Source: Chloroflexota bacterium (GTDB lineage Bacteria; Chloroflexota; Dehalococcoidia; GIF9; AB-539-J10). From it: a stretch of DNA of 31,477 nucleotides. The stretch is from positions 1 through 31,477 of the forward strand of contig JAXHSX010000039.1 in the NCBI GenBank assembly GCA_034190625.1, in the 5' to 3' direction. Positions within the stretch are counted from its first letter, which is position 1, and each line of letters opens with the position of its first letter. A model generated the notes under the pieces. That model searched no databases and had not been told where the DNA came from. It saw nothing but the letters and a program-made list of their open reading frames with translations. Of the stretch, positions 1 to 13,708 are shown one piece after another. The position numbers were made by a program, and so were the translations under genes.

Positions 1-466
1 TTGCGGATAGATTTAAGAATATGATAAGTTCAATTATTAGCCAATCGATAATACTTTTTGTGTATTCAATATCAAGAGTCTCAATATTGGTTGCGATATC
101 CTGCCCAAGTTCGGACATCAATCTGCAGAACCGTGTTGGAAGCTTTACTGGAAATGATAGACGCTAGGAGGAAATCTAGGAGCTAATATGCTCCTGAGCT
201 GAAACAAATGTTGCTTGGATTCTATTCGTAGGAGTGGAATTGAGGGACGTTGGGGTTTGCTTTCAATGTTCAGAAATTGGTGAGGTGAGATATTTGACTA
301 TTGCGCCTACGACGTGATAGTGGCTTTGTGGAAGGTGAGGATAACCTGACAAAGGTCGTCATCACATAGCTTATGGATATCGTAACATTGGTAATCTCAA
401 GGAGGATGTTTCTGCAAACAACGAGACAGCTACCAATACTAAGCTGCCAACACTAAGGTTTCACAA

Positions 467-493
467 GGTTTTTACGTCTATTGACGAAAAACC
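467..493 (-). terminator. Possible terminator hairpin downstream of nuoH
   Basis: Plus strand GGTTTTT(A)CGTC-TATT-GACGAAAAACC: an 11-bp stem with one bulge, about 50 nt past the nuoH stop. There is no clear U-tract. Confidence 0.3.
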
Positions 494-542
494 GGTTTCT
501 AGAGATATCATGGGACTTGAAGCATTATTAAAGATTAAGGCG

Positions 543-1514
543 CTATAGTACTCCTGCAAACTTCAGCCCAACAGCTACTAAAAGTTGAATCATTGCTATA
601 GGAGCGAGCCATTTTAGACACATAGTTACCATTTGCTCAATTCTAAGTCTGGCAAACAGCGCTTTAATGCAAGCTAAAATGAAGACAATGAGTAAAGTTT
701 TGATAATAAAGGCAACAAATCCTACTATTGAGGCAGGGATTCCCAATAAGTGTACTCCAGGAATATCAAAGCCGCCCAGAAAGAGGACTGATATCAAAGC
801 TGCTCCCGCCACCATTTCTATATTTATCATTATCCTCATCAAGGCTAACCTTCCGCCAGAATACTCTACCAGGGGGCCGTCAACGATTTCTTGTTCTGCT
901 GTGGGAATATCGAAGGGAATACGTTCTAGCTTACCGACAAGGGCGATAATAGCCACGATAAAAGATAGAGGCAACCAGCAAATAAACCAGACATGACTAA
1001 GTTGATATTGAACGATACCTGACAGGCTCCAGACCCCGGCTACTAAAGCAGGGGAAAGTATTGCCAGGAAGAAGGGGACTTCGTATCCAAAAAGCTGGGT
1101 AAGAACTCTAAAGCCACCAATAGTGCCAAAAGGATTCGTGGAGTGCCATCCAGCTAGGAATAGAAGGAGGGCGGGGAGGGTCAGAAGATAGGCTACCACT
1201 ATTATGTCCCCAGTGAAGGGAAAAACCGAGCTGGAAGACCAAATAGGAATATAAATAAACGCAGTGGCTACAGCCGCAATACCAAATATGGGCACCGCAG
1301 TAAACATCTTTCTATCTGCTTCCTTAGGAACCAACCCTTCCTTGGACAGGAGTTTCCAGAAATCAGCTATGGGCTGATAAAGCGGTGGACCTACCCGATT
1401 CTGCAAGCGAGCGTAAACCTTTCTATCAATGAACTCGCAGAATAGAGAATAGAAAAAGACAAATACGAATCCAGGGAAGACTAGTAAATTAACTATGGCG
1501 ATCCCAACGTTCAT
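543..1514 (-). CDS. nuoH: NuoH/MbhM/HycD-family membrane subunit (323 aa)
   Basis: DRKVYARLQNRVGPP and ERIPFDIPTAEQEIVDGPLVEYSG motifs; multiple hydrophobic helices; GGAG RBS 8 nt upstream of ATG. Confidence 0.92.
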   Translation of the reverse strand: MNVGIAIVNLLVFPGFVFVFFYSLFCEFIDRKVYARLQNRVGPPLYQPIADFWKLLSKEGLVPKEADRKMFTAVPIFGIAAVATAFIYIPIWSSSSVFPFTGDIIVVAYLLTLPALLLFLAGWHSTNPFGTIGGFRVLTQLFGYEVPFFLAILSPALVAGVWSLSGIVQYQLSHVWFICWLPLSFIVAIIALVGKLERIPFDIPTAEQEIVDGPLVEYSGGRLALMRIMINIEMVAGAALISVLFLGGFDIPGVHLLGIPASIVGFVAFIIKTLLIVFILACIKALFARLRIEQMVTMCLKWLAPIAMIQLLVAVGLKFAGVL

Positions 1515-1576
1515 CTCATTTACTCCTTTGCCTATTTTGTCACCCTCAGCTTATTCCTCTACTTTCAAGGGAGAGT

Positions 1577-2221
1577 CTAGGTGAGGGATTCTCCATTTAA
1601 CCATGCTCTTTTATCTGGCCCCCAAAATTTTACAATTTCCTTCGCGATCCATTCTAGTGGAAGATCCGCTTGTGGGCTATATTTCTCCAAATACTCTATA
1701 TATGGGTTGCCATCTAAATCTGTCTGGGGCAGAATCGCATCATGTATTCCGTCAAATTCTACTGTAGGGAGCTTATTCTTCGTACATAGTTCCCTGTCGA
1801 AAGTAGCAGCAGCACTAATCCATTTTCCACTAAGAAAGAACTGGTTATAGCCATGGCGGGGAAAAATGTTTGTGCCCATCTTTTCCATTAGGTGAGCGGG
1901 TATTCTGTGATTTTTAATTTTTGCGAAGGAAAGTCTACTGGGAATTAGTGCAGCTCTGCCTAGTGCTGTCAGAAGCACTGCCTTTTGAACACAGTATCCC
2001 TTCTCTCTTCTGAGTACAGTACTGGCCTTGAAATCCTCGAGAAATACAGACGCCATATAAATATTGTATCGAATTGAATCACGGACGAAATAAAAAAGCT
2101 TGATAACTTTCTCTACCTCGCTCGTACAGTCAAGAGTTAGCTTTTCTGCTAACTCTTGAATCATCTCATGTTCCGAGTCAATAGCTTCTGTAGGTTTCAA
2201 ATAAGACTTAAGATCATCCAT
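1577..2221 (-). CDS. Transglutaminase-like superfamily protein (214 aa)
   Basis: GYCVQKAVLLTALGRAALIP (catalytic Cys motif), RHGYNQF (His), ATFD (Asp); N-terminal YLKPTEAIDSEH segment typical of the family. Confidence 0.85.
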   Translation of the reverse strand: MDDLKSYLKPTEAIDSEHEMIQELAEKLTLDCTSEVEKVIKLFYFVRDSIRYNIYMASVFLEDFKASTVLRREKGYCVQKAVLLTALGRAALIPSRLSFAKIKNHRIPAHLMEKMGTNIFPRHGYNQFFLSGKWISAAATFDRELCTKNKLPTVEFDGIHDAILPQTDLDGNPYIEYLEKYSPQADLPLEWIAKEIVKFWGPDKRAWLNGESLT

Positions 2222-2230
2222 TGTTAAGAG

Positions 2231-2596
2231 CTACCCAACAGGCTGACTTAGCTTATCAGGAGTATATAGCGCCTGCGATTTATCCATTATAGAAATCATA
2301 GCTTCATGGGTCAAGTGAATTGCGTCTCTAGGGCAGTACTCTTCACAAAGCCCACAGAAACAACATTTTCCTAAGTGTATTTGGGGATACTTTTTCCCTT
2401 CATCGACTTCTACAAGCTCGATAGCCTTGTTGGGGCAAGCCAAAGAACATACAGGGCAACCTGTGCATTTCTCCAAGTCTAATAATTGTCTCCCTCTATA
2501 GCCATCTACTGGAGGCAGACTCTGATAGGGAAATTGCAAGGTCATGGGTTTTTTGAACAGATTCCTCATAATAGCAGCAGGTCTAAATATGCTCAT
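2231..2596 (-). CDS. NuoI/MbhN/MbxN-like 2x[4Fe-4S] subunit, module 2 (121 aa)
   Basis: KPMTLQFPY, YRGR, CTGCPVCSLACP and CCFCGLCEEYCP motifs. Confidence 0.9.
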   Translation of the reverse strand: MSIFRPAAIMRNLFKKPMTLQFPYQSLPPVDGYRGRQLLDLEKCTGCPVCSLACPNKAIELVEVDEGKKYPQIHLGKCCFCGLCEEYCPRDAIHLTHEAMISIMDKSQALYTPDKLSQPVG

Positions 2597-2602
2597 TTTA
2601 AC

Positions 2603-3742
2603 TCACCTATCCATATCAGCAGGGCAAGAATCCAAACTCCAGTATATCGCAGGAATGTCTGCTATATATGCTCCCTTGGCCAAATAAGGAAACGCAGCTA
2701 AGTTCTGAGAGAAACTGGGAGCCCTAACTTTTACTCTATAGGGTCTCTCGCTTCCATCGCTTACCATGTGGTAGCAAAATTCACCTCTAGCTGCCTCACA
2801 GCAGAAATAGGCTTCCCCTTTAGCAACTTTTTTAGTTAGACCCCATTTTACCCTAAAATCTCCCTCTGGTATCCTTTCCAGTAATTGCCTGATTATAGAG
2901 ATGCTTTCAATTATTTCCCCTCTTCTACACAAAGCCCGGGAGTAGGCATCTCCTTTTTCAAGAGATACAACTTTGAAATTCACGTAGGGGTAAGCGTCAT
3001 AAGGCTCGTCTTTCCTTACATCGGCTACCACGCCGGATGCTCTCAGATTAGGGCCAGTGATCCCCATCGCTATAGCATCATCAGGTCTAAGGATGCCCAC
3101 ATTTTCCAGCCGCATGACAAATGTAGTATTGTAGAAAACGAGATTATCATAGAGTTTCACTTGATTTTCTGTATAATCAAGCGCCTTCAGGGCTTCTTCC
3201 TTGAACCCTTGAGGTAAATCTCTTCTAACACCACCAGGTATGAAATAGCAAGGATATATTCTGCCCCCGGTTGCTAGCTCATTTAGGCGTATGATCTTTT
3301 CTCTATCCCCCCAAGCGATTCTAGTACCGCTATCAAGACCTAGAGCCATGCACATTATCCCGAGCCATGTTATATGGCTTTGTATTCTCCCCAGCTCTGC
3401 CATTATAGTCCGGATGAATTTACCTCTTTGAGGTGCCTCGATACCGGCGGCTATTTCGACAACATTCGCATATCCCATCTCGCAGGAGAAAGGGTCCAGG
3501 ACATTTATCCTATCAACCAACATAGAATTCTGGGCATGGTTTCTATACTCCATAAGCCTTTCAAAACCTCTATGGAGATACCCTGGATGGAAGGTTAGAT
3601 CAACCACTTCCTCGCCGTCGCATTTTAATGAAACATGCACATGGCCTGAGGCTGGGTGCTGAGGACCAAATGGAATGGTAGTGAAGCTTATTTCCCTTTC
3701 CTCTAATTCACTTTTAGCCAAAATACCCTTTGTCCTCTCCAT
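2603..3742 (-). CDS. NuoD/MbxL(MbsL)-like large subunit without the NiFe-binding CxxC motifs, module 2 (about 379 aa)
   Basis: GPQHP, GYLHRGFE, GGVRRD, EAARGE and C-terminal DSCPADMDR. The L1 position reads DRINVLD and there is no C-terminal extension. Start trimmed from the ORF track to ATG 3742; TTG at 3721 is an alternative. Confidence 0.88.
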   Translation of the reverse strand: MERTKGILAKSELEEREISFTTIPFGPQHPASGHVHVSLKCDGEEVVDLTFHPGYLHRGFERLMEYRNHAQNSMLVDRINVLDPFSCEMGYANVVEIAAGIEAPQRGKFIRTIMAELGRIQSHITWLGIMCMALGLDSGTRIAWGDREKIIRLNELATGGRIYPCYFIPGGVRRDLPQGFKEEALKALDYTENQVKLYDNLVFYNTTFVMRLENVGILRPDDAIAMGITGPNLRASGVVADVRKDEPYDAYPYVNFKVVSLEKGDAYSRALCRRGEIIESISIIRQLLERIPEGDFRVKWGLTKKVAKGEAYFCCEAARGEFCYHMVSDGSERPYRVKVRAPSFSQNLAAFPYLAKGAYIADIPAIYWSLDSCPADMDR

Positions 3743-4199
3743 AATATTCCCTTTTAACATATTCACGGATATCAAAATCTTTTCTAAATGGTGGCAACTC
3801 TTCCCAATCCTCAAGAAACAAGGGGGTGAGGTTTGGGTTTCCTTCAAATTCTACACCAAACATTTCATGACCTTCTCTCTCATGGATTTGTGCTCCTATC
3901 CATAGGTCAATGATCGATTTGATCCTAGGAGATTCTCTAGGAATCCTGGTCTTCACGATCGCTCTTATTTTCTTGCTATGTGACCAAAGATGATAGATCA
4001 GCTCAAATTCTCCTTCATTGATATAATCAACGAGGGCGACATCTGAAAGGTGATCAAATCCCATATCTTTAAGATTAGATAAAATTTGGTGAAATTTTAT
4101 CTCTTTTACAGTGAGTAGAATTTTCTTATCTTCCGAGGCTGAGGAGAGAACCTCCTTGGGGAATTTAGACTCAATGGCGGAGATAATTTCGTTGTCCAT
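3714..4199 (-). CDS. NuoC/MbxK-like subunit, module 2 (about 161 aa)
   Basis: GFDHLSDVALVDY, HEREGHEMFGVEFEGNP, PFRKDF. Start trimmed to ATG 4199, which has a GAAGGT RBS and sits just after the upstream stop. Confidence 0.88.
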   Translation of the reverse strand: MDNEIISAIESKFPKEVLSSASEDKKILLTVKEIKFHQILSNLKDMGFDHLSDVALVDYINEGEFELIYHLWSHSKKIRAIVKTRIPRESPRIKSIIDLWIGAQIHEREGHEMFGVEFEGNPNLTPLFLEDWEELPPFRKDFDIREYVKREYYGEDKGYFG

Positions 4200-4200
4200 A

Positions 4201-4650
4201 TTAATGACCTTCAAATCCGCCTTTTATAGCATTCATAGCCATAACTATTCCGTGACCAATATTCTCAGGTTTAGGAGGGCAACCAAGAATCCACATATCC
4301 ACGGGTATGTAGTCATCTATCCGCTTTACAGTAGCATAGGAATCCCAGTACATCCCGCCTGTCATAGGGCAGCTTCCTAAGGCTAAAACATATTTGGGCG
4401 AAGCCATTTGGTCATAGATCATCTTTATACGCTTAACAGCCTTCTTGGTTACATATCCTGCTACGATAAGGACATCAGCATGCCTAGGAGTTGGTACAGC
4501 TAATATTCCAAATCTTTCCATGTCATAGCCAGATCCCACCCAGGGAAGCAATTCCATAAATCCACAAGCGGAGAAGTAATTGATAGCCCATAAGGAATAG
4601 GTGCGCGCTTCAGCTGTGGATTTTATCGCTCGCGGAGTTAAACTCTTCAT
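4201..4650 (-). CDS. NuoB/MbxJ-like Fe-S subunit with only three cluster Cys, module 2 (149 aa)
   Basis: FSACGFME, TPRHADVL, ALGSCPMTGG, GCPPKPE; GGAGG RBS. Confidence 0.88.
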   Translation of the reverse strand: MKSLTPRAIKSTAEARTYSLWAINYFSACGFMELLPWVGSGYDMERFGILAVPTPRHADVLIVAGYVTKKAVKRIKMIYDQMASPKYVLALGSCPMTGGMYWDSYATVKRIDDYIPVDMWILGCPPKPENIGHGIVMAMNAIKGGFEGH

Positions 4651-4705
4651 TTATCAGCCTCCGATACGTGCGCTATCTGATTCGACCATTCTGTATTCAT
4701 AGTCT

Positions 4706-5239
4706 TCAAGATCGGTATCCTTGAGTCATGGCCTCCAATGAATTGCCAAGCACTTCCTTAAATAAAAGTACCAGTTCATCAAGGGAACATTCGACTTCAC
4801 TTGATATTGTAGTGCCGAAAGAGAGCATCTTCGGCTGAATACCTAAAACAATCATTTCTGAGCCGAGTTCTTTTTTAAGGTAATTGATTAACAAGTATAG
4901 AGGGAGGGAATGAGTAGATGGCATTGTCTCCTCTATTTCGTGGTCTTTAATTAGCTTGATCGTGCCGGCTTTTCCTCCTATTTCTGCAGCATCTATAAGC
5001 AATATATGGGAAGGAGATAGCCTGCGTAGCAATCCAGTGAAGTTCTCTGGAGCGTTTCCTGTAGCCAAAACTTCAACGTTCGGTATTTCTGCCAAAGCCT
5101 CTTTGAGCTTCTTCGCTGCCGATAGTCCCAGGGCATCATCGCCACCTAATTCGTTGCCAACGCCCAAAACGACAATTCGTCTCCAGCCACTTAAGGCTTC
5201 CTCAATCCCATTTTTCAAGTTACTTTGAGTAATTACCAT
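4706..5239 (-). CDS. hycI: HycI-type hydrogenase maturation endopeptidase (177 aa)
   Basis: GVGNELGGDDALG, PENFTG, LIDAA, STHSLPL; start overlaps the upstream stop (ATGGTAA). Confidence 0.9.
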   Translation of the reverse strand: MVITQSNLKNGIEEALSGWRRIVVLGVGNELGGDDALGLSAAKKLKEALAEIPNVEVLATGNAPENFTGLLRRLSPSHILLIDAAEIGGKAGTIKLIKDHEIEETMPSTHSLPLYLLINYLKKELGSEMIVLGIQPKMLSFGTTISSEVECSLDELVLLFKEVLGNSLEAMTQGYRS

Positions 5240-5592
5240 TGTTTTGATATTAATGATTCCTTGTCATAGCTGGCAAGCTCAAATTCCTCTGAAAGAGTAA
5301 TTGCCCCGAAGGGACAACTTTCAGCACACTGCCCACAAAATGCGCACCTGTAGAGGAGAAAAACAGGCCGGCTTTCCTCTTCTCCTACCTGCTCCATAAT
5401 TATCGCCTTAGCAGGACAGTCCGTAGCACATAATCCCTTGCACTTTAGTGAGCACTTCTCTGGATCGTATATAGGTCTGCCACGAAAATTCTTGGGAATA
5501 TCCAGTCTCTCGAAAGGATAGAGCACTGTAGCTCTCTTTTTAAACAGATACCTGCTAATCTCGGGGAACATAGCGCCGATTTTCGACATCAC
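5233..5592 (-). CDS. NuoI/MbhN-like 2x[4Fe-4S] subunit, module 1 (119 aa)
   Basis: ATVLYPFE, FRGRP, CSLKCKGLCATDCP, CAFCGQCAESCP; GTGA overlap with the large-subunit stop. Confidence 0.9.
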   Translation of the reverse strand: MMSKIGAMFPEISRYLFKKRATVLYPFERLDIPKNFRGRPIYDPEKCSLKCKGLCATDCPAKAIIMEQVGEEESRPVFLLYRCAFCGQCAESCPFGAITLSEEFELASYDKESLISKQW

Positions 5593-6809
5593 ACTCTCCT
5601 AGCCTCTCCCTTCAATGGAGAGGGAGATTGGTACCTATCAGAGTACCATTTCATGCTGTATTTCCTTAGCTCTTCCCAGCTTATTGCTTGTTTTTCTTTT
5701 CTATTTCTATTCTCACTGTCAAGAATCATGATCCTATCCATACAGGCCATGCATGGATCGATTGCTGCAAATACGATAGGAATATCAGCAATATATCCGC
5801 CCTTGAGGCAATGAAGCACTGAGGTGATATTTGCCAGAGTAGGCGTCCTAACCTTGAGCCTTTCTGGATGATCAGTACCATTACTCCTGATATAGTGAAG
5901 CAATTCTCCTCTAGGGGCTTCAGTCTTGCTTACTACCTCGCCCGCGGGTACCTTGCGCGGTGCTTTGGTTCTGAATTCCCCCTCGGGCAACTCTTCAATT
6001 ATTTGGCGGCACATCTTGCAACTCTCAATTACTTCTAATACTCTGACAACGGTTCTTCCTAAGACATCGCCAAGGTCTGAGGTGACAACCTTGAAATCCA
6101 GATATGGATAGGCAGCGTACGGGTCATCTCTACGAACATCATATTCTACACCAGAGCCTCTGGCGGTAGGACCGCAAGCGCAAAGTTCTATCGCCTTTTC
6201 CTTGGGGAGCAATCCTACTCCTTCGGTTCTGCGCAGGAAAGTGACCTCTGTACTAGCTACCCCAAGATAATATTCAGTTCTTTCCTTGAGTTGCTGAATG
6301 CCCTTTAAGATTTGGGGTTTCATCTCATCAGTTATATTGCGTCTTACCCCGCCGATAGTATTCATGCCATAGTTAACCCTGTTGCCTGAGATAATCTCGA
6401 GTAGATCCATAACTATTTCTCGATCTCTCCAGCTATACATAAACAGAGTATCGAATCCCAGTTCGTGTCCCGCTACTCCGAGCCAAAGGAGATGGCTATG
6501 TATTCTTTCTAATTCGCAGACTAAGGTACGGATATAAAGTCCCCTTTTCGGAACTTCCAAACCGAGTAACTCCTCTACCCCTTGGCAAAAAGTCGTGGAG
6601 TGTATATGAGAGCATATTCCACAGATCCTCGCGGTAAGATAGATATCTTGGATATAATTTCCCAGTTCGCCAGCCTTCTCAATTCCGCGGTGGTTATATC
6701 CCAGACGTACACCTATATCTACTATTGTTTCCCCATCTACAGTGACTGTCAGATTAATGGGTTCTTTCAGTGCCGGATGTTGTGGACCGATAGGAATAGT
6801 GACAGCCAT
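5589..6809 (-). CDS. Group 4 (Mbh/4g-like) [NiFe] hydrogenase large subunit, module 1 (406 aa)
   Basis: IPIGPQHPALKEP, L1 RICGICSHIH, EAPRGE, L2 DPCMACMDR, followed by a cleavable C-terminal extension. Confidence 0.95.
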   Translation of the reverse strand: MAVTIPIGPQHPALKEPINLTVTVDGETIVDIGVRLGYNHRGIEKAGELGNYIQDIYLTARICGICSHIHSTTFCQGVEELLGLEVPKRGLYIRTLVCELERIHSHLLWLGVAGHELGFDTLFMYSWRDREIVMDLLEIISGNRVNYGMNTIGGVRRNITDEMKPQILKGIQQLKERTEYYLGVASTEVTFLRRTEGVGLLPKEKAIELCACGPTARGSGVEYDVRRDDPYAAYPYLDFKVVTSDLGDVLGRTVVRVLEVIESCKMCRQIIEELPEGEFRTKAPRKVPAGEVVSKTEAPRGELLHYIRSNGTDHPERLKVRTPTLANITSVLHCLKGGYIADIPIVFAAIDPCMACMDRIMILDSENRNRKEKQAISWEELRKYSMKWYSDRYQSPSPLKGEARRV

Positions 6810-6810
6810 T

Positions 6811-7275
6811 TCAGCCCTCCTTAACCTCGACCTTGTAATCCTTTCTCAAAGGATAGACCCCTTCCTCCCAATCGTCTGGGAGAATCAATCTCCTAGGATC
6901 GGGGTGGTCTTTCACCTTTAAACCTAGTAGATCCTGTATCTCTCGCTCATAAAGAATGGCGCCAGGCATGACCGGGGTAATAGTATCAAGTACAGGATTT
7001 GTCTTAGGGACAAAAGTGCTTAAGCTGATGGTTACTCCCTGGCAAAAGAAGTGATACAAGACCTCAATATCCTCTCCCACATCGACTGCAGTTATGGTGG
7101 TAATGTGGACCATGCCAAAACTTTGCTTGAGATAATCGATGACTTCCTTAACCTTGGGCAAGGGAATTCGAACAAATATTCTGCGTTCCCGAGGTATCCT
7201 AACTTTGAGGATTTGCTCGCCGAAAGTCTCTTTGAGTTTGTTCTCGACATCACTCGCCACTGACATGAATTTCAT
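6811..7275 (-). CDS. NuoC/MbhK-like subunit, module 1 (154 aa)
   Basis: HITTITAVD, YEREIQDLLG, HPDPRRL, YPLRK. Confidence 0.9.
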   Translation of the reverse strand: MKFMSVASDVENKLKETFGEQILKVRIPRERRIFVRIPLPKVKEVIDYLKQSFGMVHITTITAVDVGEDIEVLYHFFCQGVTISLSTFVPKTNPVLDTITPVMPGAILYEREIQDLLGLKVKDHPDPRRLILPDDWEEGVYPLRKDYKVEVKEG

Positions 7276-7735
7276 TTTTCCTTTTCAGTTCTTCCAAAAG
7301 TTGGTTATAACTGGGATCAAGATCTCCCAGAAGCTTTACTACCCCATGGATGATGGCATCGGGTCGGGGGGGGCAACCAGGTATATATACATTCACCGGG
7401 ATTGCCTTATCTATGCCACCTAGGACGTTATAGCAGCCCCAAAACACATCACCGGAGCAAGCGCAGGAACCAATAGCTATAACGAACTTCGGGTCAGGCA
7501 TCTGCTCGTATATTCTAACAGCTCTATTCTTCATTTGCCTGGTTATCGGGCCGCAGCACAGAAGGACATCAGCATGTCTCGGGGTTCCCTTAAGCAATAT
7601 ACCAAACCTTTCAATATCAAACCTCGGCATAAGGGCAGCAAGGGTTTCAATGTCACAACCATTGCAGCCACCGGTGTTTAGGTGACATACCCATGGTGAT
7701 TTCACTCTGGACCACTTGGTCAAACTTTCAAGCAT
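7250..7735 (-). CDS. Group 4 hydrogenase small subunit (NuoB/MbhJ-like), module 1 (161 aa)
   Basis: GGCNGCDIE (CxxC), TPRHADVL, IGSCACSG, PGCPPRP: four cluster Cys. Confidence 0.93.
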   Translation of the reverse strand: MLESLTKWSRVKSPWVCHLNTGGCNGCDIETLAALMPRFDIERFGILLKGTPRHADVLLCCGPITRQMKNRAVRIYEQMPDPKFVIAIGSCACSGDVFWGCYNVLGGIDKAIPVNVYIPGCPPRPDAIIHGVVKLLGDLDPSYNQLLEELKRKNEIHVSGE

Positions 7736-7778
7736 GAATAAACTCCCTGCATCGTCTCATGGAGGCGGCGCGATGTTT

Positions 7779-8099
7779 TCAATCAGTGAGCAAAATTACT
7801 ACTGTTATCAAAGCGATGACTAAATAAATAATGCCTATCCAAGCAATCCTACCACTTGGTACAGTGGCAATTACCAGGGCAGCTACGTGCAATATGGTAA
7901 AGAAAAAGGCAAAATGAAAGAAGCGGTAATTATGCTGTACTTTCCCTCCTGGAATATCTTCTCCACAAGCATAAGTGCTTAGCTTTCCTTCCTCCATGCT
8001 TGGTTTCGGCCCCAGGGATTTGCTCAATCTGTAAACCAAGTAACCGATAACTAAGAATATTAGGAAGGCAACTGGCGGATAGAGAAGAAATTGACTCAT
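7779..8099 (-). CDS. nuoA: NuoA-like membrane subunit (106 aa)
   Basis: Three hydrophobic helices; loop GKLSTYACGE matches the NuoA YECG loop. Confidence 0.8.
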   Translation of the reverse strand: MSQFLLYPPVAFLIFLVIGYLVYRLSKSLGPKPSMEEGKLSTYACGEDIPGGKVQHNYRFFHFAFFFTILHVAALVIATVPSGRIAWIGIIYLVIALITVVILLTD

Positions 8100-9572
8100 T
8101 TAGCTTCCTCCTAAACTGGTTATCATGAAGCTTACCACGGGATCAACTATTTTCAAACCCAGCTCGGGATATACGCCAAGTGCTACAGTGAGGATGACCA
8201 TTATAATTATAGGTATATATATAGATGGTGGAATTCCCTTTGCCTCCTTGGCTTTTTCCGAGATATCACTGGAGAAGAGGATCTTATTGATAGCTGGCAA
8301 ATAGTATACGAGAGAGAGCACACTATTTACTATGAGTAGGATCATGGCCACAATGCCCCAACCACCGACGTCGACACCTGCTCTACAGATGAAGAATTTA
8401 CTGATAAAGCCATTGAGCGGAGGCACACCAGCTAGTGCAAACCCAAAGAAGGCAAAGGCAACGCCAATCAATGGCAATTTACGCCCTATTCCCCGCATCT
8501 CCTCCAAATCCCTGGTTCCGATAGAATAAATAATAGCCCCAGCGCATAAAAAGGCTCCACCTTTTATCACAGCATGGTTTAGTATATGTAGAAATCCTCC
8601 GCGGAATCCATATTCGCCACCGGTGGAAAGATACGCGAAAGCTAATCCTACCCCCAATAAGATATATCCCATCTGAGCAATACTGGAATAAGCCAACATT
8701 CGTTTCAGGTCTCGCTGCACTATAGCTATGAAGTTGCCTACGAACATGCTGACGATGCCGAAGATAATTAATACCACTCCAGAATTGACTCCTGGTAATA
8801 CAGCCAGTGCTTTGATCATGGCGATGAATCCCGCTCCGATAATTATCCCTGACAACATGGCGCTTATTCCACTGGGAGCAGCACTATGCGCATCGGGGAG
8901 CCATGTGTGGAGAGGTACTATAGCTGCCTTTACCCCGAAGCCAATAATGATGAGTACAACCGCACCGATTGCCGTTAGAGAATCCATACCAGCAGTTAAA
9001 TTGGCTAAGATAGCGAGGTCTAAACTTCCGGTATACATGAATATCAGCGAGATGCCCATAAGAGCCATAAGGGAACCAGCAACGCTCATAAAGATATATT
9101 TTATCGCTGCTTCTATGGGTTCCCACCTATCTTTCTCGAAAGCAACTAAGACATAAGAAGGGATAGCCATAACCTCGAAGAAAACAAACATGTTAAATAA
9201 ATCACCAGCAAATCCAATTCCCACAATGCCGGCGATCATAATGAGCAAAAGGCTATAATATCTACCTAAACCATCAAAATGTTCCATATAGCTTATAGAG
9301 AAGAGGGATACTAATGCTCCAAGTCCCACCGCTACGAGTCCCAGGAATATAGCTAGACCATTGGCTTCAAGATAGGTTTGAGCTCCCCCGATGGACCATG
9401 TTAGTAACTCTGTTCCAGAACGAAGTGTGAAGATCTGGATGCCCGAGATCACTAAGAAGATAAAAGAAACGACTCCGGTATACTTAGGCTTGGGCAGCAG
9501 GCGAGCAAAAAGATAGCTTACGAGGGCTCCGATAAACAAGGTGATGATAGGTACAAGAGGTGTTACATTCAT
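8100..9572 (-). CDS. Antiporter-like proton-pumping subunit (NuoM/N, MbhH, HyfB family; about 490 aa)
   Basis: FVFFEVM, EAAIKY, KAAIVPLHTWLPDAHSAAPSGISA, KRMLAYSSI, GVPPLNGFISK. Start trimmed to ATG 9572. Confidence 0.9.
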   Translation of the reverse strand: MNVTPLVPIITLFIGALVSYLFARLLPKPKYTGVVSFIFLVISGIQIFTLRSGTELLTWSIGGAQTYLEANGLAIFLGLVAVGLGALVSLFSISYMEHFDGLGRYYSLLLIMIAGIVGIGFAGDLFNMFVFFEVMAIPSYVLVAFEKDRWEPIEAAIKYIFMSVAGSLMALMGISLIFMYTGSLDLAILANLTAGMDSLTAIGAVVLIIIGFGVKAAIVPLHTWLPDAHSAAPSGISAMLSGIIIGAGFIAMIKALAVLPGVNSGVVLIIFGIVSMFVGNFIAIVQRDLKRMLAYSSIAQMGYILLGVGLAFAYLSTGGEYGFRGGFLHILNHAVIKGGAFLCAGAIIYSIGTRDLEEMRGIGRKLPLIGVAFAFFGFALAGVPPLNGFISKFFICRAGVDVGGWGIVAMILLIVNSVLSLVYYLPAINKILFSSDISEKAKEAKGIPPSIYIPIIIMVILTVALGVYPELGLKIVDPVVSFMITSLGGS

Positions 9573-9658
9573 TACTCTTTCGCTCCACTTGAGTTGCTTC
9601 GCTTTAGCCGCAATACCATTACTTTGTTTCCAATCCGTTTTAATTCTTGGTTCTTCAT
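9572..9658 (-). CDS. Putative 28-aa bridging mini-ORF (MKNQELKRIGNKVMVLRLKRSNSSGAKE)
   Basis: The ATG overlaps the nuoL-like stop (ATGA) and its TAA overlaps the next ATG (TAATG). It fills the gap exactly. Confidence 0.3.
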   Translation of the reverse strand: MKNQELKRIGNKVMVLRLKRSNSSGAKE

Positions 9659-11430
9659 ACTGTCCAAACAAGTAGCAACACCAGGAATATGACAAACCCA
9701 ATGACTATTCCTAAGTTGTTATAATTCAAGTCTCCAGTTTGTATTCTCCTGAATTGCTGCCAAAACCTAAAGAGACCTCTAACACATTTATTATAGAAAA
9801 TATCAAACCAATAGGCTTTCATTAGAGGCAAAGTTAAAGCAGAGGGCTTTCTAAATGCATTGATGACAGTTGCCTTCCATTTTATGGTAAGTAGGGCTAT
9901 CAGAATGGCTACGCCAACGGTAATCCAGATAGTGGGACCGGCGAAGGCATGCTGGATGAAGTTCCCTAAAGTAATATGTGCTATGGAATAATGAGGAAGG
10001 GAAGAGGCCATGCTGGCGGTATAAGGTGATATGTAAAGCCAGAATAAAAGAGATGCCGCAGCCAACACTATCAGTGGTACTGTCATCTGCCAGGGCGCCT
10101 CGTGGATCTTCACCTTGCTTCTTCTATCACCCTGGAAAGTGAGCCAGTACATTCGCCAGGAGTAGGCAGCGGTTAAAAATGCCGTTATAGCAAGAAGTGC
10201 GAAAGCCTCATATAACCCTCCCGCGTGTAAATGTGCCAGAATCATGTGTTTAGAGAAGAAACCAGTCAAGACAGGAATTCCTACCAATGAGAGGAGACCG
10301 AGAATAGCGCAAATGTGGGTAATCTTCATGTGCTTGCGCAATCCTCCCATTTCACGCATGTCCTTGGTTCCTGTTACATAAATTATGGCGCCAGCGCAAA
10401 GGAACAAGAGGGCTTTGAATATTCCGTGAGATAAAAGATAGAATTTACTGGCTAGAATTGCGCCTGCTCCGATGGCTGCCATCATGTATCCCAGTTGGCT
10501 GATAGTGGAGTAGGCGAGCACCCGTTTAATATCCCATTCTGTTAAGGCTATAGTGGCTGCCAGGAATGCAGTTATAGTACCAATCCACAGTATCGCTGTA
10601 GACCACCCAGCTAATCCCATAAAGATAGGATAGCTACGAGCGAGCAGATATACTCCAGCATTGACTAAACAAGCAGCATGGATCAGAGAAGTAATCGTCG
10701 TGGGAGCCACCATAGCATCAGGTAACCAAACGTGAAGAGGAAATTGGGCTGACTTGCCCACTGCCCCTGCGATAAATCCGGCACCCGCTAGTCCAAGAAG
10801 GACAGGAGAGACGGTACTCGCGACGTTCATTATCTCGAAGACGTTGAGGCTTCCTGTAGCGTGCCATAGGATCAATATTCCAGCTAAGAATCCAATATCC
10901 CCTATCCTTGTTACGATAAACGCTTTGGTTCCCGCAGGTATCGGTTCGGGATCGTGGTAGTAGTAACCAATCAAAGCATAAGAGCAAAAACCAATGATCT
11001 CCCAGAAGATGTACATAACCAAAAGGTTACTGGTTAAAGCCAGACCAATCATGCCGCCGATGAAGAACAAGGTCTGCCAGTAGTATCGTGAAAGAGAATA
11101 CTCATGCTCAGCGTGCTTCATATAGCGTATGGAGTATAATAGAGCCAACGCTCCAATACACCCGGCAATTATGGCGACAAAGACACTTAAAGAGTCAAGA
11201 CAAATCCCTAGGCTGATATTTGCTCCCGGTATCCACAGAAAGTCATTGACGCTACCTTCTGTAATAGAAGGAATGAGTGATAGAGTTAAACCAGCGGTGA
11301 TAAATCCCAGAGTAATGGCATATATAGTTCTCGCTTTGGGGCTTATCTTCTCGACAACGTAACAAAAAGGCCCGCCTATTATCGGTATGACTACAGCCAG
11401 TATAGCGATTAGTGTGCTGCTTTCCATCAT
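9655..11430 (-). CDS. nuoL: NuoL-like antiporter subunit (591 aa)
   Basis: FWEIIGFCSYALIGY, TRIGD, GKSAQFPLHVWLPDAM, IKRVLAYSTISQLG, HGIFKALLFL, GFFSK, C-terminal QTG. Confidence 0.92.
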   Translation of the reverse strand: MMESSTLIAILAVVIPIIGGPFCYVVEKISPKARTIYAITLGFITAGLTLSLIPSITEGSVNDFLWIPGANISLGICLDSLSVFVAIIAGCIGALALLYSIRYMKHAEHEYSLSRYYWQTLFFIGGMIGLALTSNLLVMYIFWEIIGFCSYALIGYYYHDPEPIPAGTKAFIVTRIGDIGFLAGILILWHATGSLNVFEIMNVASTVSPVLLGLAGAGFIAGAVGKSAQFPLHVWLPDAMVAPTTITSLIHAACLVNAGVYLLARSYPIFMGLAGWSTAILWIGTITAFLAATIALTEWDIKRVLAYSTISQLGYMMAAIGAGAILASKFYLLSHGIFKALLFLCAGAIIYVTGTKDMREMGGLRKHMKITHICAILGLLSLVGIPVLTGFFSKHMILAHLHAGGLYEAFALLAITAFLTAAYSWRMYWLTFQGDRRSKVKIHEAPWQMTVPLIVLAAASLLFWLYISPYTASMASSLPHYSIAHITLGNFIQHAFAGPTIWITVGVAILIALLTIKWKATVINAFRKPSALTLPLMKAYWFDIFYNKCVRGLFRFWQQFRRIQTGDLNYNNLGIVIGFVIFLVLLLVWTV

Positions 11431-11736
11431 TTATCCGCGAAGTTTCTTGAGGTCATCAATGTCAAGAGTTCCTGTATGTCGGTAAGACCTTACTATCAAA
11501 GCCATGGCAACAGCGGCAGTAATTGCTTCAATGACTATGATGGTTATCACGATAGCCTGGGCGATTTGCTCGTTGCCCTGGAAAAAACCGGCGAGAATAA
11601 AGCTCAAGGTAACTCCTTTGGCAATTACCTCAATGCCGATGAGTAACTGAACTATGTTCTTTCTGGCTATCAGACAATAAATCCCAATGCCGATAAGTAT
11701 GACAATGGCCAGCATGTAAAGTTGCCACAAGTTCAT
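11431..11736 (-). CDS. nuoK: NuoK/MnhC-like subunit (101 aa)
   Basis: Three helices with GIE and IEA conserved Glu; ends TLDIDDLKKLRG; ATGA coupled to the upstream gene. Confidence 0.9.
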   Translation of the reverse strand: MNLWQLYMLAIVILIGIGIYCLIARKNIVQLLIGIEVIAKGVTLSFILAGFFQGNEQIAQAIVITIIVIEAITAAVAMALIVRSYRHTGTLDIDDLKKLRG

Positions 11737-11960
11737 CGCTGTATCCTTTCCTTGACTAGTGTGAGAATGCCGAGGGTTCCTGATAAAATGATTAACAATT
11801 GTAGGAAAACATCAAGCGAGCGAAATTCCCAGAGTGCTTGGCTGAATGACTTAGCAACAGTGAGGCTAATATCAGGCTGGGGTGGAGGAATAAGTAGTGC
11901 AATAGAAAAGCCGATGAAAACCAAGGTTGCTATTATACCTATTATCTCTTTTGTATTCAT
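11733..11960 (-). CDS. Small membrane subunit, MbhE/MnhB N-terminal-like (NuoJ C-half equivalent; 75 aa)
   Basis: Two hydrophobic helices; WEFRSLDVFLQ resembles the xxRxxDTxxE motif. Confidence 0.65.
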   Translation of the reverse strand: MNTKEIIGIIATLVFIGFSIALLIPPPQPDISLTVAKSFSQALWEFRSLDVFLQLLIILSGTLGILTLVKERIQR

Positions 11961-11961
11961 T

Positions 11962-12228
11962 TTACTTTCTTTTGGTTAAGCTGATGACAGAGACAAATAA
12001 AGCTGTAATCAATCCGGCGCAGATAGAAAGTTCAAATACTCCAGCGTAGGGAGAGTCAAGCTTGAAAAATATTATTGCTATCATTACGCTCAACACTGCC
12101 AGTGAAATGGCAGAAAAAAGCATTTCTTTGAAGCGTACTGCCAAAACAGCCGAGGCAATAGCGGCAATAATTAAAACGATACTGATAGCGTCAATTGGCA
12201 CTAGCTTTGCCTCCAAAGGTGCTTCCAT
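11962..12228 (-). CDS. DUF4040/MbhD-like small membrane subunit (NuoJ N-half equivalent; 88 aa)
   Basis: Three helices; LDSPYAGVFELSICAG resembles the APxxAxxExxVGAG motif. Confidence 0.7.
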   Translation of the reverse strand: MEAPLEAKLVPIDAISIVLIIAAIASAVLAVRFKEMLFSAISLAVLSVMIAIIFFKLDSPYAGVFELSICAGLITALFVSVISLTKRK

Positions 12229-12427: not shown

Positions 12428-12456
12428 ATTATAAACAGGTTTTAAAGCATCGTCAA
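12428..12456 (-). promoter_or_regulatory. Sigma70-type promoter of the membrane-complex operon
   Basis: Minus strand TTGACG (12456-12451), N17, TATAAT (12433-12428). Confidence 0.8.
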
Positions 12457-12972: not shown

Positions 12973-13431
12973 TTAACCTCGAATGGTTTCTTCCATGACC
13001 ATCCTAACCGCTTCAGGAATAACTCGCTCTACGTCGGGTGTGCATTTCTCACTAAACTTAGTAACGTCTTTTACTTCTATAGCGAATATGGTGATCTTTC
13101 GGGGCATTGGTAAGTTAAGTAGCTTGCCTAATTCTAGAGCAGTGACTAAGTTTATTTGATGGGGTGATGAAGGATGTTTAGCAAAGGAGAAATCTTGCGG
13201 TTCCATACAATATATCTGGCCTACTTTTCCTTCCTTAGTTTGGATGGCATCAATAATAATAACTTCGTCATAGCCTACGACATAATCTAAAAAGCTGAGG
13301 CCAGCTAAACTCGACTCAGCTACAGTAACTTGGGGGTTACTAAAGGTCTTGCTTATTTCTTGTACTACCCTAATACCTACAGCGTCGTCACAAAGAATGG
13401 GATTTCCCAGTCCTAGAATCAATGTTTTCAT
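12973..13431 (-). CDS. HyaD/HupD-type hydrogenase maturation protease (152 aa)
   Basis: LGLGNPILCDDAVG, IIIDAI, SPHQINL. Confidence 0.92.
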   Translation of the reverse strand: MKTLILGLGNPILCDDAVGIRVVQEISKTFSNPQVTVAESSLAGLSFLDYVVGYDEVIIIDAIQTKEGKVGQIYCMEPQDFSFAKHPSSPHQINLVTALELGKLLNLPMPRKITIFAIEVKDVTKFSEKCTPDVERVIPEAVRMVMEETIRG

Positions 13432-13467: not shown

Positions 13468-13695
13468 TTATGAGTGTAGCGAAAGATCGCATTGTTTAGG
13501 TAATGTAATAGCCCTAAACTTGAAATTCTTGCCTCTTGACTTTCCGCCAAGATCAAGCAATTGAGCCAAGGTTTTAGCCTCTCTCAAGCCTCGTGGTGGT
13601 TGGGTACAGCCATCGCAGCCTGTGATTAGAATGGAATTGTAAGGGGACAGGAAATCGAAAATTTCATCTAAAGGTTTTTGACTTGTTATTATCAC
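13468..13695 (-). pseudogene. metV: Truncated metV copy (75 aa; 5' third only)
   Basis: Near-identical to the first ~70 aa of the 20410..21057 product, then diverges after KQCD and stops. The C-terminal Fe-S/Zn domain is missing. Confidence 0.85.
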
Positions 13696-13708
13696 TGCCT
13701 AGTCTCCT
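13486..13708. repeat. Direct repeat copy A (223 bp)
   Basis: Aligns ungapped to 20848..21070 with 10 mismatches by manual count. Confidence 0.95.

What the first reader, a model, noticed from the sequence alone, without database searches (positions are those of the whole stretch)
543..12228. Two-headed complex I-like machine: one membrane arm, two different catalytic modules
Seen: one operon carries a single set of membrane genes (MbhD-like, MbhE-like, K, L, M/N, A, H) but two full peripheral sets, B1-C1-D1-I1 (7735-5233) and B2-C2-D2-I2 (4650-2231), with hycI between them. D1 has both Ni-binding CxxC motifs; D2 does not. Established: Thermococcales encode Mbh (H2 evolution) and Mbs/Mbx (sulfane-sulfur reduction) as separate operons, each with its own membrane arm and NuoH-like anchor. 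Inference: here one ion-pumping arm accepts interchangeable heads, switching between ferredoxin:H+ and ferredoxin:unknown-acceptor (polysulfide, disulfide or quinone-like) activity. This is the best candidate for an undescribed system in the window.
Basis: partly seen in the sequence, partly recalled or inferred. Interest (0 to 1): 0.88.

Follow-up and report, generated by a model that had tools for sequence, protein, structure and literature searches.

The report
One membrane arm, two catalytic heads
A marine-sediment bacterium has one operon encoding a single complex-I-like ion-pumping membrane arm and two different catalytic heads, a nickel-iron hydrogenase head and a sulfur-reductase-like iron-sulfur head. 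Related genomes carry the same arm with either head alone, so the heads look exchangeable on a fixed arm.

Summary
On the minus strand, 12228-543 is one operon: nuoJ (split in two), K, L, M/N, A; then B1-C1-D1-I1-hycI; then B2-C2-D2-I2; then a transglutaminase-like gene and the only nuoH.

- **Head 1** is an intact group 4 [NiFe] hydrogenase module. Its closest solved relative is MbhL.
- **Head 2** is MBS-like. Its closest solved relatives are MbsL and MbsJ, and it has a three-cysteine proximal cluster.
- **The host** is a bacterium from a family labelled Dehalococcoidales, not a Thermococcales archaeon.
- **The arm** is of the Fpo-like "Hfo" (group 4g) type and has no Mrp module.

Orthologous arms (72-88% identity) occur in relatives with head 1 only, or with head 2 only. 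A 93%-complete relative has head 2 on the arm, head 1 as an orphan cassette beside mvh, and one nuoH. A deletion scar at 13486-13708 shows that head 1 recently moved from the mvh locus into the arm operon. Both heads are under purifying selection (dN/dS 0.06-0.14). Independent contigs support the junctions.

The best reading is two alternative heads competing for one arm (about 0.55). This rests on genomics only, with no biochemistry and no RNA evidence. I found no description of it in the literature searched. An earlier scan note reports stand-alone MBS-type heads in archaea.

The parts
12428..12456 (-). Promoter-like site (TTGACG, 17 nt, TATAAT; 11 of 12) in the gap between the NUDIX gene and nuoJ1
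   Evidence: It ties for the best match in the region and is in the expected place. The overall number of such sites is no higher than chance, so this is only suggestive.
11962..12228 (-). NuoJ N-terminal half / MbhD-like (J1)
   Evidence: Pfam Oxidored_q3 and MbhD. 68-73% identical to the first gene of the arm operons in relatives.
11733..11960 (-). NuoJ C-terminal half / MbhE-like (J2)
   Evidence: No Pfam hit. Same position and 64-71% identity in L025, L027, L128 and L130.
11431..11736 (-). NuoK-like
   Evidence: Pfam Oxidored_q2, E 9e-23.
9655..11430 (-). NuoL-like antiporter subunit (591 aa)
   Evidence: Pfam Proton_antipo_N and Proton_antipo_M.
8100..9572 (-). NuoM/N-like antiporter subunit. 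The likely start is the ATG at 9572 (490 aa); the ORF extends to 9701.
   Evidence: Pfam Proton_antipo_M. Relatives align only from residue 41-44 onward. The Met is seen.
7779..8099 (-). NuoA-like
   Evidence: Pfam Oxidored_q4. 70-78% identical in relatives.
7250..7735 (-). Head 1 small subunit B1 (NuoB/MbhJ-like), with CxxC plus two further cluster cysteines
   Evidence: Pfam Oxidored_q6. The GCNGC motif is seen in the alignment.
6811..7275 (-). Head 1 C1 (NuoC/MbhK-like)
   Evidence: Pfam Complex1_30kDa.
5589..6809 (-). Head 1 large subunit D1: group 4 [NiFe] hydrogenase with both CxxC pairs and a C-terminal extension
   Evidence: The best solved relative is MbhL, 6cfw_L, at 323 bits. It lies inside the Fpo-like hydrogenase clade.
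5233..5592 (-). Head 1 I1 (NuoI/MbhN-like) with eight cysteines. The first motif has an unusual Cx3Cx3Cx3CP spacing.
4706..5239 (-). HycI-type maturation endopeptidase (hycIa), presumably for D1
   Evidence: Pfam HycI. It follows I1 in all relatives.
4201..4650 (-). Head 2 small subunit B2, MbsJ-like. It has exactly three cysteines, and its cluster loop is three residues shorter than in B1.
   Evidence: The best solved relative is 6u8y_J. Clade-wide conservation is shown. The meaning of the three cysteines comes from PMC7684303.
3714..4214 (-). Head 2 C2
   Evidence: Pfam Complex1_30kDa.
2603..3742 (-). Head 2 large subunit D2, MbsL-like, with no [NiFe] site
   Evidence: The best solved relative is 6u8y_L at 282 bits.
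2231..2596 (-). Head 2 I2 with two canonical CxxCxxCxxxCP motifs
1577..2221 (-). Transglutaminase-like protein between the heads and nuoH; role unknown
   Evidence: Pfam Transglut_core. 90% identical in L035, with dN/dS 0.16. Only fragments remain in L128, L131 and L149.
543..1514 (-). NuoH-like membrane anchor, the only one in the MAG
   Evidence: Pfam NADHdh, E 2e-78. Own-genome search. Tree.
13486..13708 (-). Scar of the relocation: a 5' remnant of metV after the Fd-MvhD gene, followed by 55 nt and then hycIb
   Evidence: A 223-nt direct repeat, 96% identical to the intact metV 5' end at 20848-21070. Relatives carry metV-B1-C1-D1-I1-hycIa exactly between these two points.
12973..13431 (-). 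Second HycI-type protease (hycIb), left behind at the former site of head 1
   Evidence: Pfam HycI. It follows hycIa in relatives.

Best explanation
The operon encodes one Fpo-like (Hfo-type) membrane arm with one NuoH anchor and two alternative ferredoxin-linked peripheral modules.

- Head 1 (B1-C1-D1-I1, matured by HycI) is a [NiFe] hydrogenase module that interconverts protons and H2.
- Head 2 (B2-C2-D2-I2) is an MBS-type module with no [NiFe] site. Its proximal [4Fe-4S] cluster has three cysteine ligands and therefore one open iron. It most likely reduces a sulfane-sulfur or disulfide-type acceptor.

A complex-I-type arm offers one NuoH docking site, so the cell would build two populations of complexes on the same arm. 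One would be a hydrogenase and the other a non-hydrogenase reductase.

Shown: the gene content, cofactor motifs, selection, orthology of the arm across head types, and the recent relocation of head 1 into the operon.

Inferred: that both heads dock in this organism, the acceptor of head 2, and the direction and ion coupling of either form.
For: 1. Parts list. One NuoH, two NuoD and two antiporter-like genes in this MAG. The same holds in relative G118/G041, which is 93% complete. There the arm carries head 2 on contig 43 and head 1 is an orphan cassette on contig 25.
2. Orthologous arms. Their identity to the window's arm is A 70-78%, M/N 77-87%, L 72-78% and H 77-88%. They occur with head 1 only (L127-L131) and with head 2 only (L025, L027, L028).
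3. Arm phylogeny. In the concatenated arm tree (1644 columns) the head-1-only arms are nested inside the head-2 arms on branches of 0.04-0.05 substitutions per site. The AU test rejects separating them (p = 0.0024). D1 and D2 themselves are only 40% identical and fall in separate, fully supported clades of the D tree.
4. Repeated linkage. Head 1 is attached to the arm operon at three different positions in close relatives: between nuoA and B2 (this window), after nuoH (L034, L127, L131), and before TGase-nuoH (L035, L128).
5. Intact, constrained heads. D1 has both CxxC pairs. B2 has the three-Cys MBS hallmark, conserved across its clade. dN/dS is 0.10 for D1, 0.07 for D2 and 0.06 for B2 at unsaturated dS of 0.4-0.7.
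6. Orphan head-1 copies keep family-wide conserved positions as well as arm-linked copies do: 3-5 of 128 changed in D1, 1-2 of 60 in B1.
7. Canonical Hfo genomes have as many heads as NuoH genes, so the imbalance is specific to this clade.
Against: - There is no protein-level, structural or expression evidence. No RNA run holds this DNA.
- The MAG is only 71% complete.
- The one-operon arrangement is recent. The metV remnant is still 96% identical to its source, and the closest head-2 relative (93%) lacks the insertion. The arrangement could therefore be neutral.
- Head 1 sits next to mvh/hdr/metV genes in several relatives, which would also fit a cytoplasmic role.
- Stand-alone MBS-type heads with no arm nearby exist (L207, L209; earlier scan note e1-4792382). 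Soluble MBH and MBS subcomplexes are catalytically active in vitro (C-MBS in PMC7684303).
- The AU-test group was named after the tree had been seen.
Confidence: 0.55

Rival explanations
1. Only head 2 docks on the arm in this organism. Head 1 works as a cytoplasmic [NiFe] hydrogenase module together with the neighbouring Mvh / Fd-MvhD / HdrA-like / MetV proteins, and its presence inside the arm operon is a recent, selectively neutral rearrangement.
For: - In G118, L029, L124 and L125, head 1 directly follows mvhDGA, Fd-MvhD and metV with no membrane genes.
- The window keeps a scar showing that head 1 came from that locus.
- Throughout this clade I1 has an unusual Cx3Cx3Cx3CP first motif, which could reflect a different electron partner.
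- Soluble MBH/MBS subcomplexes are active in vitro (PMC7684303).
Against: - The same head-1 clade is the sole head in orthologous arm operons (L127-L131), so it can dock.
- Orphan copies show no relaxation at conserved positions.
- Head 1 has been linked to the arm operon at three different sites.
- Its wider family is always arm-encoded (80 of 80 loci apart from this clade).
Confidence: 0.2
2. This is a transitional state of module replacement. One head is displacing the other on the arm, and the redundant head is simply not yet lost.
For: Sibling lineages have only one head in the arm operon. The insertion is recent.
Against: - Both heads show strong purifying selection and intact cofactor ligands.
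- G118 also keeps both heads at about 75-80% identity to the window's. The arm and head-1 trees are compatible with vertical co-inheritance, which implies long coexistence.
Confidence: 0.1
3. A second NuoH or membrane arm exists in the unassembled part of the genome, so each head has its own arm as in Thermococcales.
For: The MAG is 71% complete and fragmented into 147 contigs. Other members of the family (G007, G018, G177, G111) have one NuoH per head.
Against: The 93%-complete relative G118 has the same two heads and only one NuoH and one arm. No orphan arm was seen in any related contig.
Confidence: 0.08
4. The two-headed operon is an assembly chimera of two strains, one with an arm-head-1 operon and one with an arm-head-2 operon.
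For: Both single-head operon types exist in nature with very similar arms. The region holds a 223-nt repeat.
Against: - Independently built contigs of the source run cross both junctions with no mismatch.
- A contig from another study crosses the nuoA-B1 junction.
- B1 and B2 are too different at DNA level to mis-join.
- The Shine-Dalgarno sequence of B2 is preserved right after the inserted block.
Confidence: 0.02

Closest known systems
Hfo, the Fpo-like 11-subunit group 4g [NiFe] hydrogenase (Loh, Herve and Brune 2021, PMC7886697)
   Same: - Gene order J-K-L-M/N-A-B-C-D-I/H with a complex-I-like arm and no Mrp module.
- D subunit with both [NiFe] motifs, and a HycI protease.
- The arm, NuoH and head 1 of the window all nest among such operons.
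   Different: - In this clade nuoH has moved from between D and I to the end of the operon.
- Head 1 can be an orphan cassette.
- A second, non-hydrogenase head shares the operon.
- I1 has an unusual first cluster motif.
MBS (formerly Mbx), the membrane-bound sulfane sulfur reductase of Pyrococcus furiosus (PDB 6U8Y; PMC7684303)
   Same: - D2 and B2 have MbsL and MbsJ as their best solved relatives.
- B2 keeps only the three cysteines that ligate the proximal cluster in MbsJ, and has the shortened loop.
- No [NiFe] site.
- Two antiporter-like subunits.
   Different: - No MbsA/B/C (Mrp) sodium module.
- Asn replaces MbsL C85; only the C385 equivalent remains.
- The host is bacterial.
- The arm derives from a hydrogenase (Hfo) arm and is shared, or exchanged, with a hydrogenase head.
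- The substrate is untested.
MBH, the membrane-bound hydrogenase of Pyrococcus furiosus (PDB 6CFW)
   Same: D1's best solved relative is MbhL. The four-subunit ferredoxin-linked [NiFe] head has the same composition.
   Different: MBH has one antiporter-like subunit plus an Mrp module, and its own MbhM anchor encoded between L and N. Here there are two antiporter-like subunits, no Mrp module, and the anchor lies at the end of the operon.
Respiratory complex I / NDH-1 (for example Thermus thermophilus, 4HEA)
   Same: Arm composition (A, H, J, K, L, M/N) and Q-module composition (B, C, D, I).
   Different: - No NuoEFG.
- B2 lacks the tandem CC, and D2 has Val at the position of the quinone-binding Tyr (Nqo4 Y87).
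- Only two antiporter-like subunits.
Cyanobacterial NDH-1 variants (NDH-1L, NDH-1MS and others), cited from my own knowledge and not tested here
   Same: A precedent for one conserved core complex combined with alternative modules in the same cell.
   Different: There the exchanged part is the distal membrane module (NdhD/NdhF paralogues and Cup proteins). Here the exchanged part would be the catalytic Q-module itself.
Stand-alone MBS-type heads (earlier scan note e1-4792382; also L207 and L209 here)
   Same: B-C-D-I cassettes of the D2 family with no membrane genes nearby.
   Different: In the window, head 2 sits between nuoA and nuoH. This is its native place in five related arm operons.

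Membership tests
Group 4 membrane-bound [NiFe] hydrogenase (head 1) | Large subunit with the L1 (RxCGxCxxxH) and L2 (DPCxxCxxH/R) nickel-binding motifs | tested here: met
   D1 reads RICGICSHIH and DPCMACMDR. Both are invariant in 13 close homologues.
Group 4 membrane-bound [NiFe] hydrogenase (head 1) | C-terminal extension on the large subunit plus a HycI-type endopeptidase | tested here: met
   47 residues follow the CxxCxxR motif. hycIa lies directly downstream.
Group 4 membrane-bound [NiFe] hydrogenase (head 1) | Small subunit with four cysteines (CxxC...C...C) for the proximal cluster | tested here: met
   B1 has GCNGC plus the two downstream cysteines, aligned with all Hfo-type B subunits.
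Hfo / subgroup 4g Fpo-like hydrogenase | Complex-I-like arm (A, H, J, K, L, M/N) in one cluster with B, C, D, I and no Mrp subunits | tested here: met
   79 of 80 wider homologues of D1 have this layout. The description is in PMC7886697.
Hfo / subgroup 4g Fpo-like hydrogenase | HydDB assignment of the large subunit to subgroup 4g | not testable with these tools
   HydDB is not available here. Placement rests on synteny and on trees built with unnamed metagenomic relatives.
MBS (Mbx) sulfane sulfur reductase (head 2) | Proximal [4Fe-4S] cluster ligated by three cysteines, on a loop three residues shorter than in MBH | tested here: met
   B2 has exactly three Cys, at the MbsJ C28, C93 and C123 positions, with Phe at C25. 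The loop is three residues shorter than in B1. All this is conserved in 12 members.
MBS (Mbx) sulfane sulfur reductase (head 2) | Large subunit retaining two of the four [NiFe] cysteines (MbsL C85 and C385) | tested here: not met
   The C385 equivalent is present (SLDSCPADMDR). The C85 position is Asn, and a different Cys lies seven residues downstream of it. The paper shows that these cysteines are not needed for catalysis.
MBS (Mbx) sulfane sulfur reductase (head 2) | Mrp-type sodium module (MbsA, B, C and the long MbsE) | tested here: not met
   No such genes are in the operon or window. No other PF00361 antiporter-type gene lies elsewhere in the MAG.
MBS (Mbx) sulfane sulfur reductase (head 2) | Ferredoxin-dependent reduction of polysulfide or dimethyl trisulfide | not testable with these tools
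   Requires enzyme assays.
Complex I / NDH-1 quinone reductase (head 2) | Quinone-binding Tyr (Nqo4 Y87) and tandem cysteines in NuoB | tested here: not met
   Val aligns with Y87. B2 reads SACGF where NuoB has CC.

The most novel reading that the evidence does not exclude
The cell changes the chemistry of one respiratory pump by exchanging its whole catalytic Q-module. The same arm would carry either a [NiFe] hydrogenase head (H2/ferredoxin) or an MBS-type iron-sulfur head (ferredoxin to a sulfane-sulfur-like acceptor). This would match two reactions of very different free energy to one ion-translocating machine. The same module exchange, passing through a two-headed intermediate, would be the route by which complex-I-like enzymes changed substrate during evolution.
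Probability: 0.45. Interest if true: 0.9.

Novelty: new variant of a known kind. Interest (0 to 1): 0.78.

Why it matters
How hydrogenases gave rise to MBS and then complex I is usually described as gradual loss of the nickel ligands within one enzyme. This clade offers a concrete alternative. Whole catalytic heads are exchanged on an almost unchanged membrane arm, and living lineages represent each stage: head 1 only, head 2 only, both in trans, and both in one operon.

If both heads dock in one cell, this would be, as far as I could find, the first case of a complex-I-type pump with alternative Q-modules. It would also provide a natural system for asking what the NuoH interface needs in order to couple different redox chemistries to ion pumping.

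The lineage is common in marine and freshwater sediment metagenomes, so the finding also bears on hydrogen and sulfur cycling there.

Tried and rejected
- **Assembly chimera: rejected.** Independent contigs cross both junctions.
- **Second arm or nuoH elsewhere: not found.** Searched in the MAG and in the 93%-complete relative.
- **Relaxed selection or broken genes in module 2: not seen**.
- **Conserved synteny B-C-D-I-hycI-B-C-D-I-TGase-H: not found anywhere else.** The closest D1 relatives (88-91%) and the closest D2 relative (93%) have other layouts.
- **Thermococcales-type Mbh/Mbs arms: rejected.** There are no Mrp subunits, and the arm nests in Fpo-like hydrogenase arms.
- **Recombination between head 1 and arm histories: not supported.** The AU test gives p = 0.29.
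- **Orphan D2-type heads in archaeal Hfo genomes G262-G266: none**.
- **Expression evidence: none.** No RNA run holds the DNA, and the single read-laying run had already been used.
- **Genomes behind L208 and L027:** not held, so their NuoH counts could not be taken.
- **Rfam:** no RNA family in the window.
- **Promoter and terminator scan:** counts no higher than chance.
- **Literature:** searches for a prior description of two Q-modules on one arm, or of Mbx in Dehalococcoidia, found nothing in the held library. The search for "Ehr" complexes was swamped by unrelated hits.
- **Docking models:** multimer modelling is not possible with the tools given.


Full report
**1. What is in the window**

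ORF listing and Pfam scans confirm a tightly packed minus-strand operon from 12228 to 543.

- **Membrane arm, first part:** nuoJ split into two genes, then nuoK, a 591-aa NuoL-like subunit, a NuoM/N-like subunit and nuoA.
- **Head 1:** B1, C1, D1, I1, followed by hycI.
- **Head 2:** B2, C2, D2, I2.
- **Tail:** a transglutaminase-like gene and nuoH.

Gaps between genes are overlaps or at most 82 nt. No convincing terminator lies inside the operon. A promoter-like site that ties for the best match in the region (11 of 12) sits at 12456-12428, just upstream of the first gene, although the number of such sites overall is no higher than chance.

Two gene starts should be corrected. D2 starts at the ATG at 3742 (379 aa) and M/N starts at the ATG at 9572 (490 aa).

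The MAG is bacterial. It holds three sigma-70 genes, a family that rang only in the bacterial control genomes. A relative in the same family is titled "uncultured Dehalococcoidales bacterium". The samples that hold the sequence are marine sediment metagenomes.

**2. The two heads**

Head 1 is an intact group 4 [NiFe] hydrogenase module.

- D1 carries both nickel-binding CxxC pairs and a 47-residue C-terminal extension.
- B1 has the CxxC-type four-cysteine set, and I1 has eight cysteines.
- The closest solved structure to D1 is MbhL of Pyrococcus furiosus (6cfw_L, 323 bits).

Head 2 is MBS-like.

- The closest solved structures are MbsL for D2 (6u8y_L, 282 bits) and MbsJ for B2.
- B2 has exactly three cysteines. 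They align with MbsJ C28, C93 and C123, which are the three ligands of the site-differentiated proximal cluster that the MBS paper identifies as the catalytic site (PMC7684303).
- The B2 loop is three residues shorter than in B1, as that paper describes for MBS against MBH. This holds for all twelve members of the B2 clade examined.
- D2 has lost both cysteines of the first nickel motif, with Asn at MbsL C85. It keeps the C385 equivalent and has Val where Nqo4 has the quinone-binding Tyr87.

Head 2 is therefore neither a hydrogenase nor a canonical quinone reductase. It shares the catalytic hallmark of MBS but is not a full member of that family: one large-subunit feature and the Mrp module are missing.

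**3. The arm**

There are no Mrp-type subunits. The wider family of D1 (56-66% identity) was sampled as 80 genomes across many bacterial phyla and Thermoplasmatota-type archaea. Apart from G118, it almost always shows one layout: two or three antiporter-like genes, J, K and A, followed by B-C-D-H-I-hycI. This is the Fpo-like 11-subunit hydrogenase that Loh and co-workers named Hfo and placed in subgroup 4g (PMC7886697).

The NuoH tree, the D tree and the concatenated arm tree all place the window's arm, its NuoH and head 1 inside that group, next to archaeal-labelled Hfo operons.

**4. A natural head-exchange series**

Contigs that carry the closest homologues show orthologous arms in four states. 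The identities of these arms to the window's arm are A 70-78%, M/N 77-87%, L 72-78% and H 77-88%.

| State | Layout | Examples |
|---|---|---|
| a | J1-J2-K-L-M/N-A-B1-C1-D1-I1-hycI-(TGase remnant)-H; head 1 only | L128 (a 102-kb contig), L129, L130 |
| b | ...A-(30-codon B1 remnant)-H-B1-C1-D1-I1-hycI | L127, L131, L034 |
| c | J1-J2-K-L-M/N-A-B2-C2-D2-I2-H; head 2 only | L025, L027, L028; L210 (93% D2 identity, nuoA 3' end directly before B2); more distantly G177 and G111 |
| d | Both heads in one operon | this window |

In genome G118/G041 (93% complete, 3% contamination), the arm carries head 2 on contig 43. Head 1 is an orphan cassette on contig 25, directly after arsR-mvhDGA, Fd-MvhD and metV. 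The genome has one NuoH, two NuoD and two antiporter-like genes.

The reverse situation is also seen. A Bathyarchaeota-labelled assembly has a complete Hfo operon and, 3 kb away, an orphan head-2 cassette (L208). Orphan head-2 cassettes with no membrane genes within reach also occur (L207, L209).

Canonical Hfo genomes have equal numbers of heads and NuoH genes and no D2-type head.

**5. Phylogeny**

The concatenated arm tree (H, L, M/N, A, K; 1644 columns) gives ((G177,G111),(window,(L027,(L025,(L128,L130,L131))))), with supports of 94-100. The head-1-only arms are thus nested among head-2 arms, on branches of about 0.04-0.05 substitutions per site.

Forcing all arms that have head 2 in the operon into one clade costs 32.5 log-likelihood units (AU p = 0.0024). 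The caveat is that the group was named after the tree had been seen.

D1 and D2 are only 40% identical and fall in separate, fully supported clades of the D tree. The head at the arm operon has therefore changed while the arm, including the NuoH anchor, hardly changed.

The concatenated head-1 tree does not reject the arm topology (AU p = 0.29). Vertical co-inheritance of arm and head 1 is therefore sufficient, and I do not claim recombination.

The simplest history has three steps.
- An Hfo-type ancestor carried the arm plus head 1.
- Head 2 was added at the base of this clade.
- The three modules were then re-arranged or lost differently in each lineage.

On this history, the lineages leading to the window and to G118 have kept two heads and one arm over the whole depth of the clade.

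**6. How the window's operon arose**

In relatives the order is Fd-MvhD, metV, B1, C1, D1, I1, hycIa, hycIb. In the window, Fd-MvhD is followed by the first ~210 nt of metV (13486-13708), then 55 nt, then hycIb.

The remnant is a 223-nt direct repeat, 96% identical to the 5' end of an intact metV at 20848-21070. The missing block B1-hycIa now lies a few kilobases downstream, inside the 13-17-nt nuoA-B2 spacer of a type-c operon, and the Shine-Dalgarno sequence of B2 is preserved.

The one-operon state is therefore recent and derived.

The arrangement is nevertheless real. Independently built contigs from the probable source run cross both junctions without a mismatch, and a contig from a different study at about 96% identity crosses the nuoA-B1 junction.

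**7. Selection**

Against the nearest relatives at unsaturated dS (0.4-0.7):

| Gene | dN/dS |
|---|---|
| D1 | 0.10 |
| I1 | 0.06 |
| D2 | 0.07 |
| B2 | 0.06 |
| C2 | 0.14 |
| TGase-like gene | 0.16 |

The arm genes give 0.04-0.11 at higher dS.

Orphan head-1 copies keep positions conserved across all Hfo-type sequences as well as arm-linked copies do. This is weak evidence, but it fits retained docking ability.

**8. Mechanism proposed**

*Shown:* one arm and one anchor; two intact heads of different chemistry; orthologous arms serving each head in sibling lineages.

*Inferred:* in this cell the two heads compete for the single NuoH site, giving two kinds of complex. Each head has an I subunit with two clusters of the kind that accepts electrons from ferredoxin in MBH and MBS. 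The neighbouring mvh/hdr-like genes are typical ferredoxin-linked systems.

- With head 1, the complex would couple ferredoxin and H2 to the ion gradient. Loh and co-workers argue that Hfo may run in the H2-uptake direction, driven by the membrane potential.
- With head 2, the complex would pass ferredoxin electrons to a sulfane-sulfur or disulfide-type acceptor at the open iron of the B2 cluster, as proposed for MBS.

The acceptor, the direction and the ion stoichiometry are all untested.

**9. Rivals**

| Rival | Weight |
|---|---|
| Head 1 is cytoplasmic and works with Mvh/Hdr/MetV, and its relocation is neutral | 0.2 |
| Transitional replacement of one head by the other | 0.1 |
| An unassembled second arm | 0.08 |
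| Assembly chimera | 0.02 |

The first rival is the serious one. It is supported by the repeated mvh linkage and by an unusual Cx3Cx3Cx3CP motif in I1 that is conserved through the clade. It is weakened because the same head-1 clade is the only head in orthologous arm operons, and because head 1 has been linked to the arm at three different sites.

**10. Novelty**

The parts belong to known families (Hfo/4g, MBS-like, complex-I-like arm). Three things appear to be undescribed in the library searched:

- two different Q-modules with one arm in one operon;
- genomes with more heads than anchors;
- the series of orthologous arms with exchanged heads.

I rate it a new variant of a known kind, of high interest to people working on complex I evolution and on anaerobic energy conservation. 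The evidence is genomic only.

Noticed in passing
window 13486-13708 and 20848-21070: A 223-nt direct repeat (96% identity). One copy is the 5' end of the intact metV. The other is a truncated metV remnant between the Fd-MvhD gene and hycIb. It marks the former site of the head-1 cassette.
   Followed up: yes
window 5233-5592 (I1); also L031, L033-L035, L127-L131: The first cluster motif of I1 is Cx3Cx3Cx3CP rather than the usual CxxCxxCxxxCP. All members of this head-1 clade share it, whether orphan or arm-linked. No wider Hfo relative has it. It may reflect a changed electron partner.
   Followed up: partly
window 1577-2221; L035 2176-2859; L128 12102-12287; L131 9759-10025; L149 1888-2094: The transglutaminase-like gene before nuoH (with a GYC motif) is intact and constrained in the window and L035 (90% identity, dN/dS 0.16). 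Only fragments remain in other arm operons, so it is dispensable for the complex.
   Followed up: partly
window 1-542: No convincing ORF or Rfam match lies downstream of nuoH. Contigs from three other samples (X2-X4) match the window down to position 520 and then continue with a different shared sequence. This suggests a strain-variable breakpoint just after the operon.
   Followed up: partly
L027 1-3667: A third kind of orphan head lies directly upstream of a type-c arm operon. It consists of B-C-D (365 aa, 41% identical to D2) followed by a 626-aa GltD/SudA-like flavoprotein with ferredoxin domains.
   Followed up: no
L020 (G007 C94) and L021 (G018 C6): Other genera of the same family have K, a single antiporter-like gene, then B-C-D-I-H and B-C-D-H-I in tandem. 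That is two heads, each with its own NuoH, behind one antiporter-like subunit at that locus. G014 has one NuoH but two heads, and the D2-like set on contig C3 has no nuoH in the 900 nt that follow it.
   Followed up: partly
L208 (Bathyarchaeota-labelled assembly GCA_021161125.1): An orphan MBS-like B-C-D-I cassette followed by a HycI gene lies 3 kb from a complete Hfo-type hydrogenase operon. Within the 13.4 kb of the contig examined, the archaeal locus thus has two heads and one NuoH.
   Followed up: partly
L127 816-947 and L131 5470-5601: A 30-codon remnant of the 5' end of B1 sits between nuoA and nuoH in operons where nuoH precedes head 1. It is a scar of another rearrangement.
   Followed up: no
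L202 (G177 C11) 16441-18213: The NuoL-like subunit of G177 is 88% identical to the window's, while the other arm subunits of G177 are 56-69% identical. This may reflect gene conversion or exchange of a single arm gene.
   Followed up: no
L029, L030, L031 flanks: Rhodanese, NifU, Rrf2 and SufBD genes cluster next to the orphan head-1/mvh locus in relatives. This hints at sulfur-transfer chemistry in the neighbourhood.
   Followed up: no
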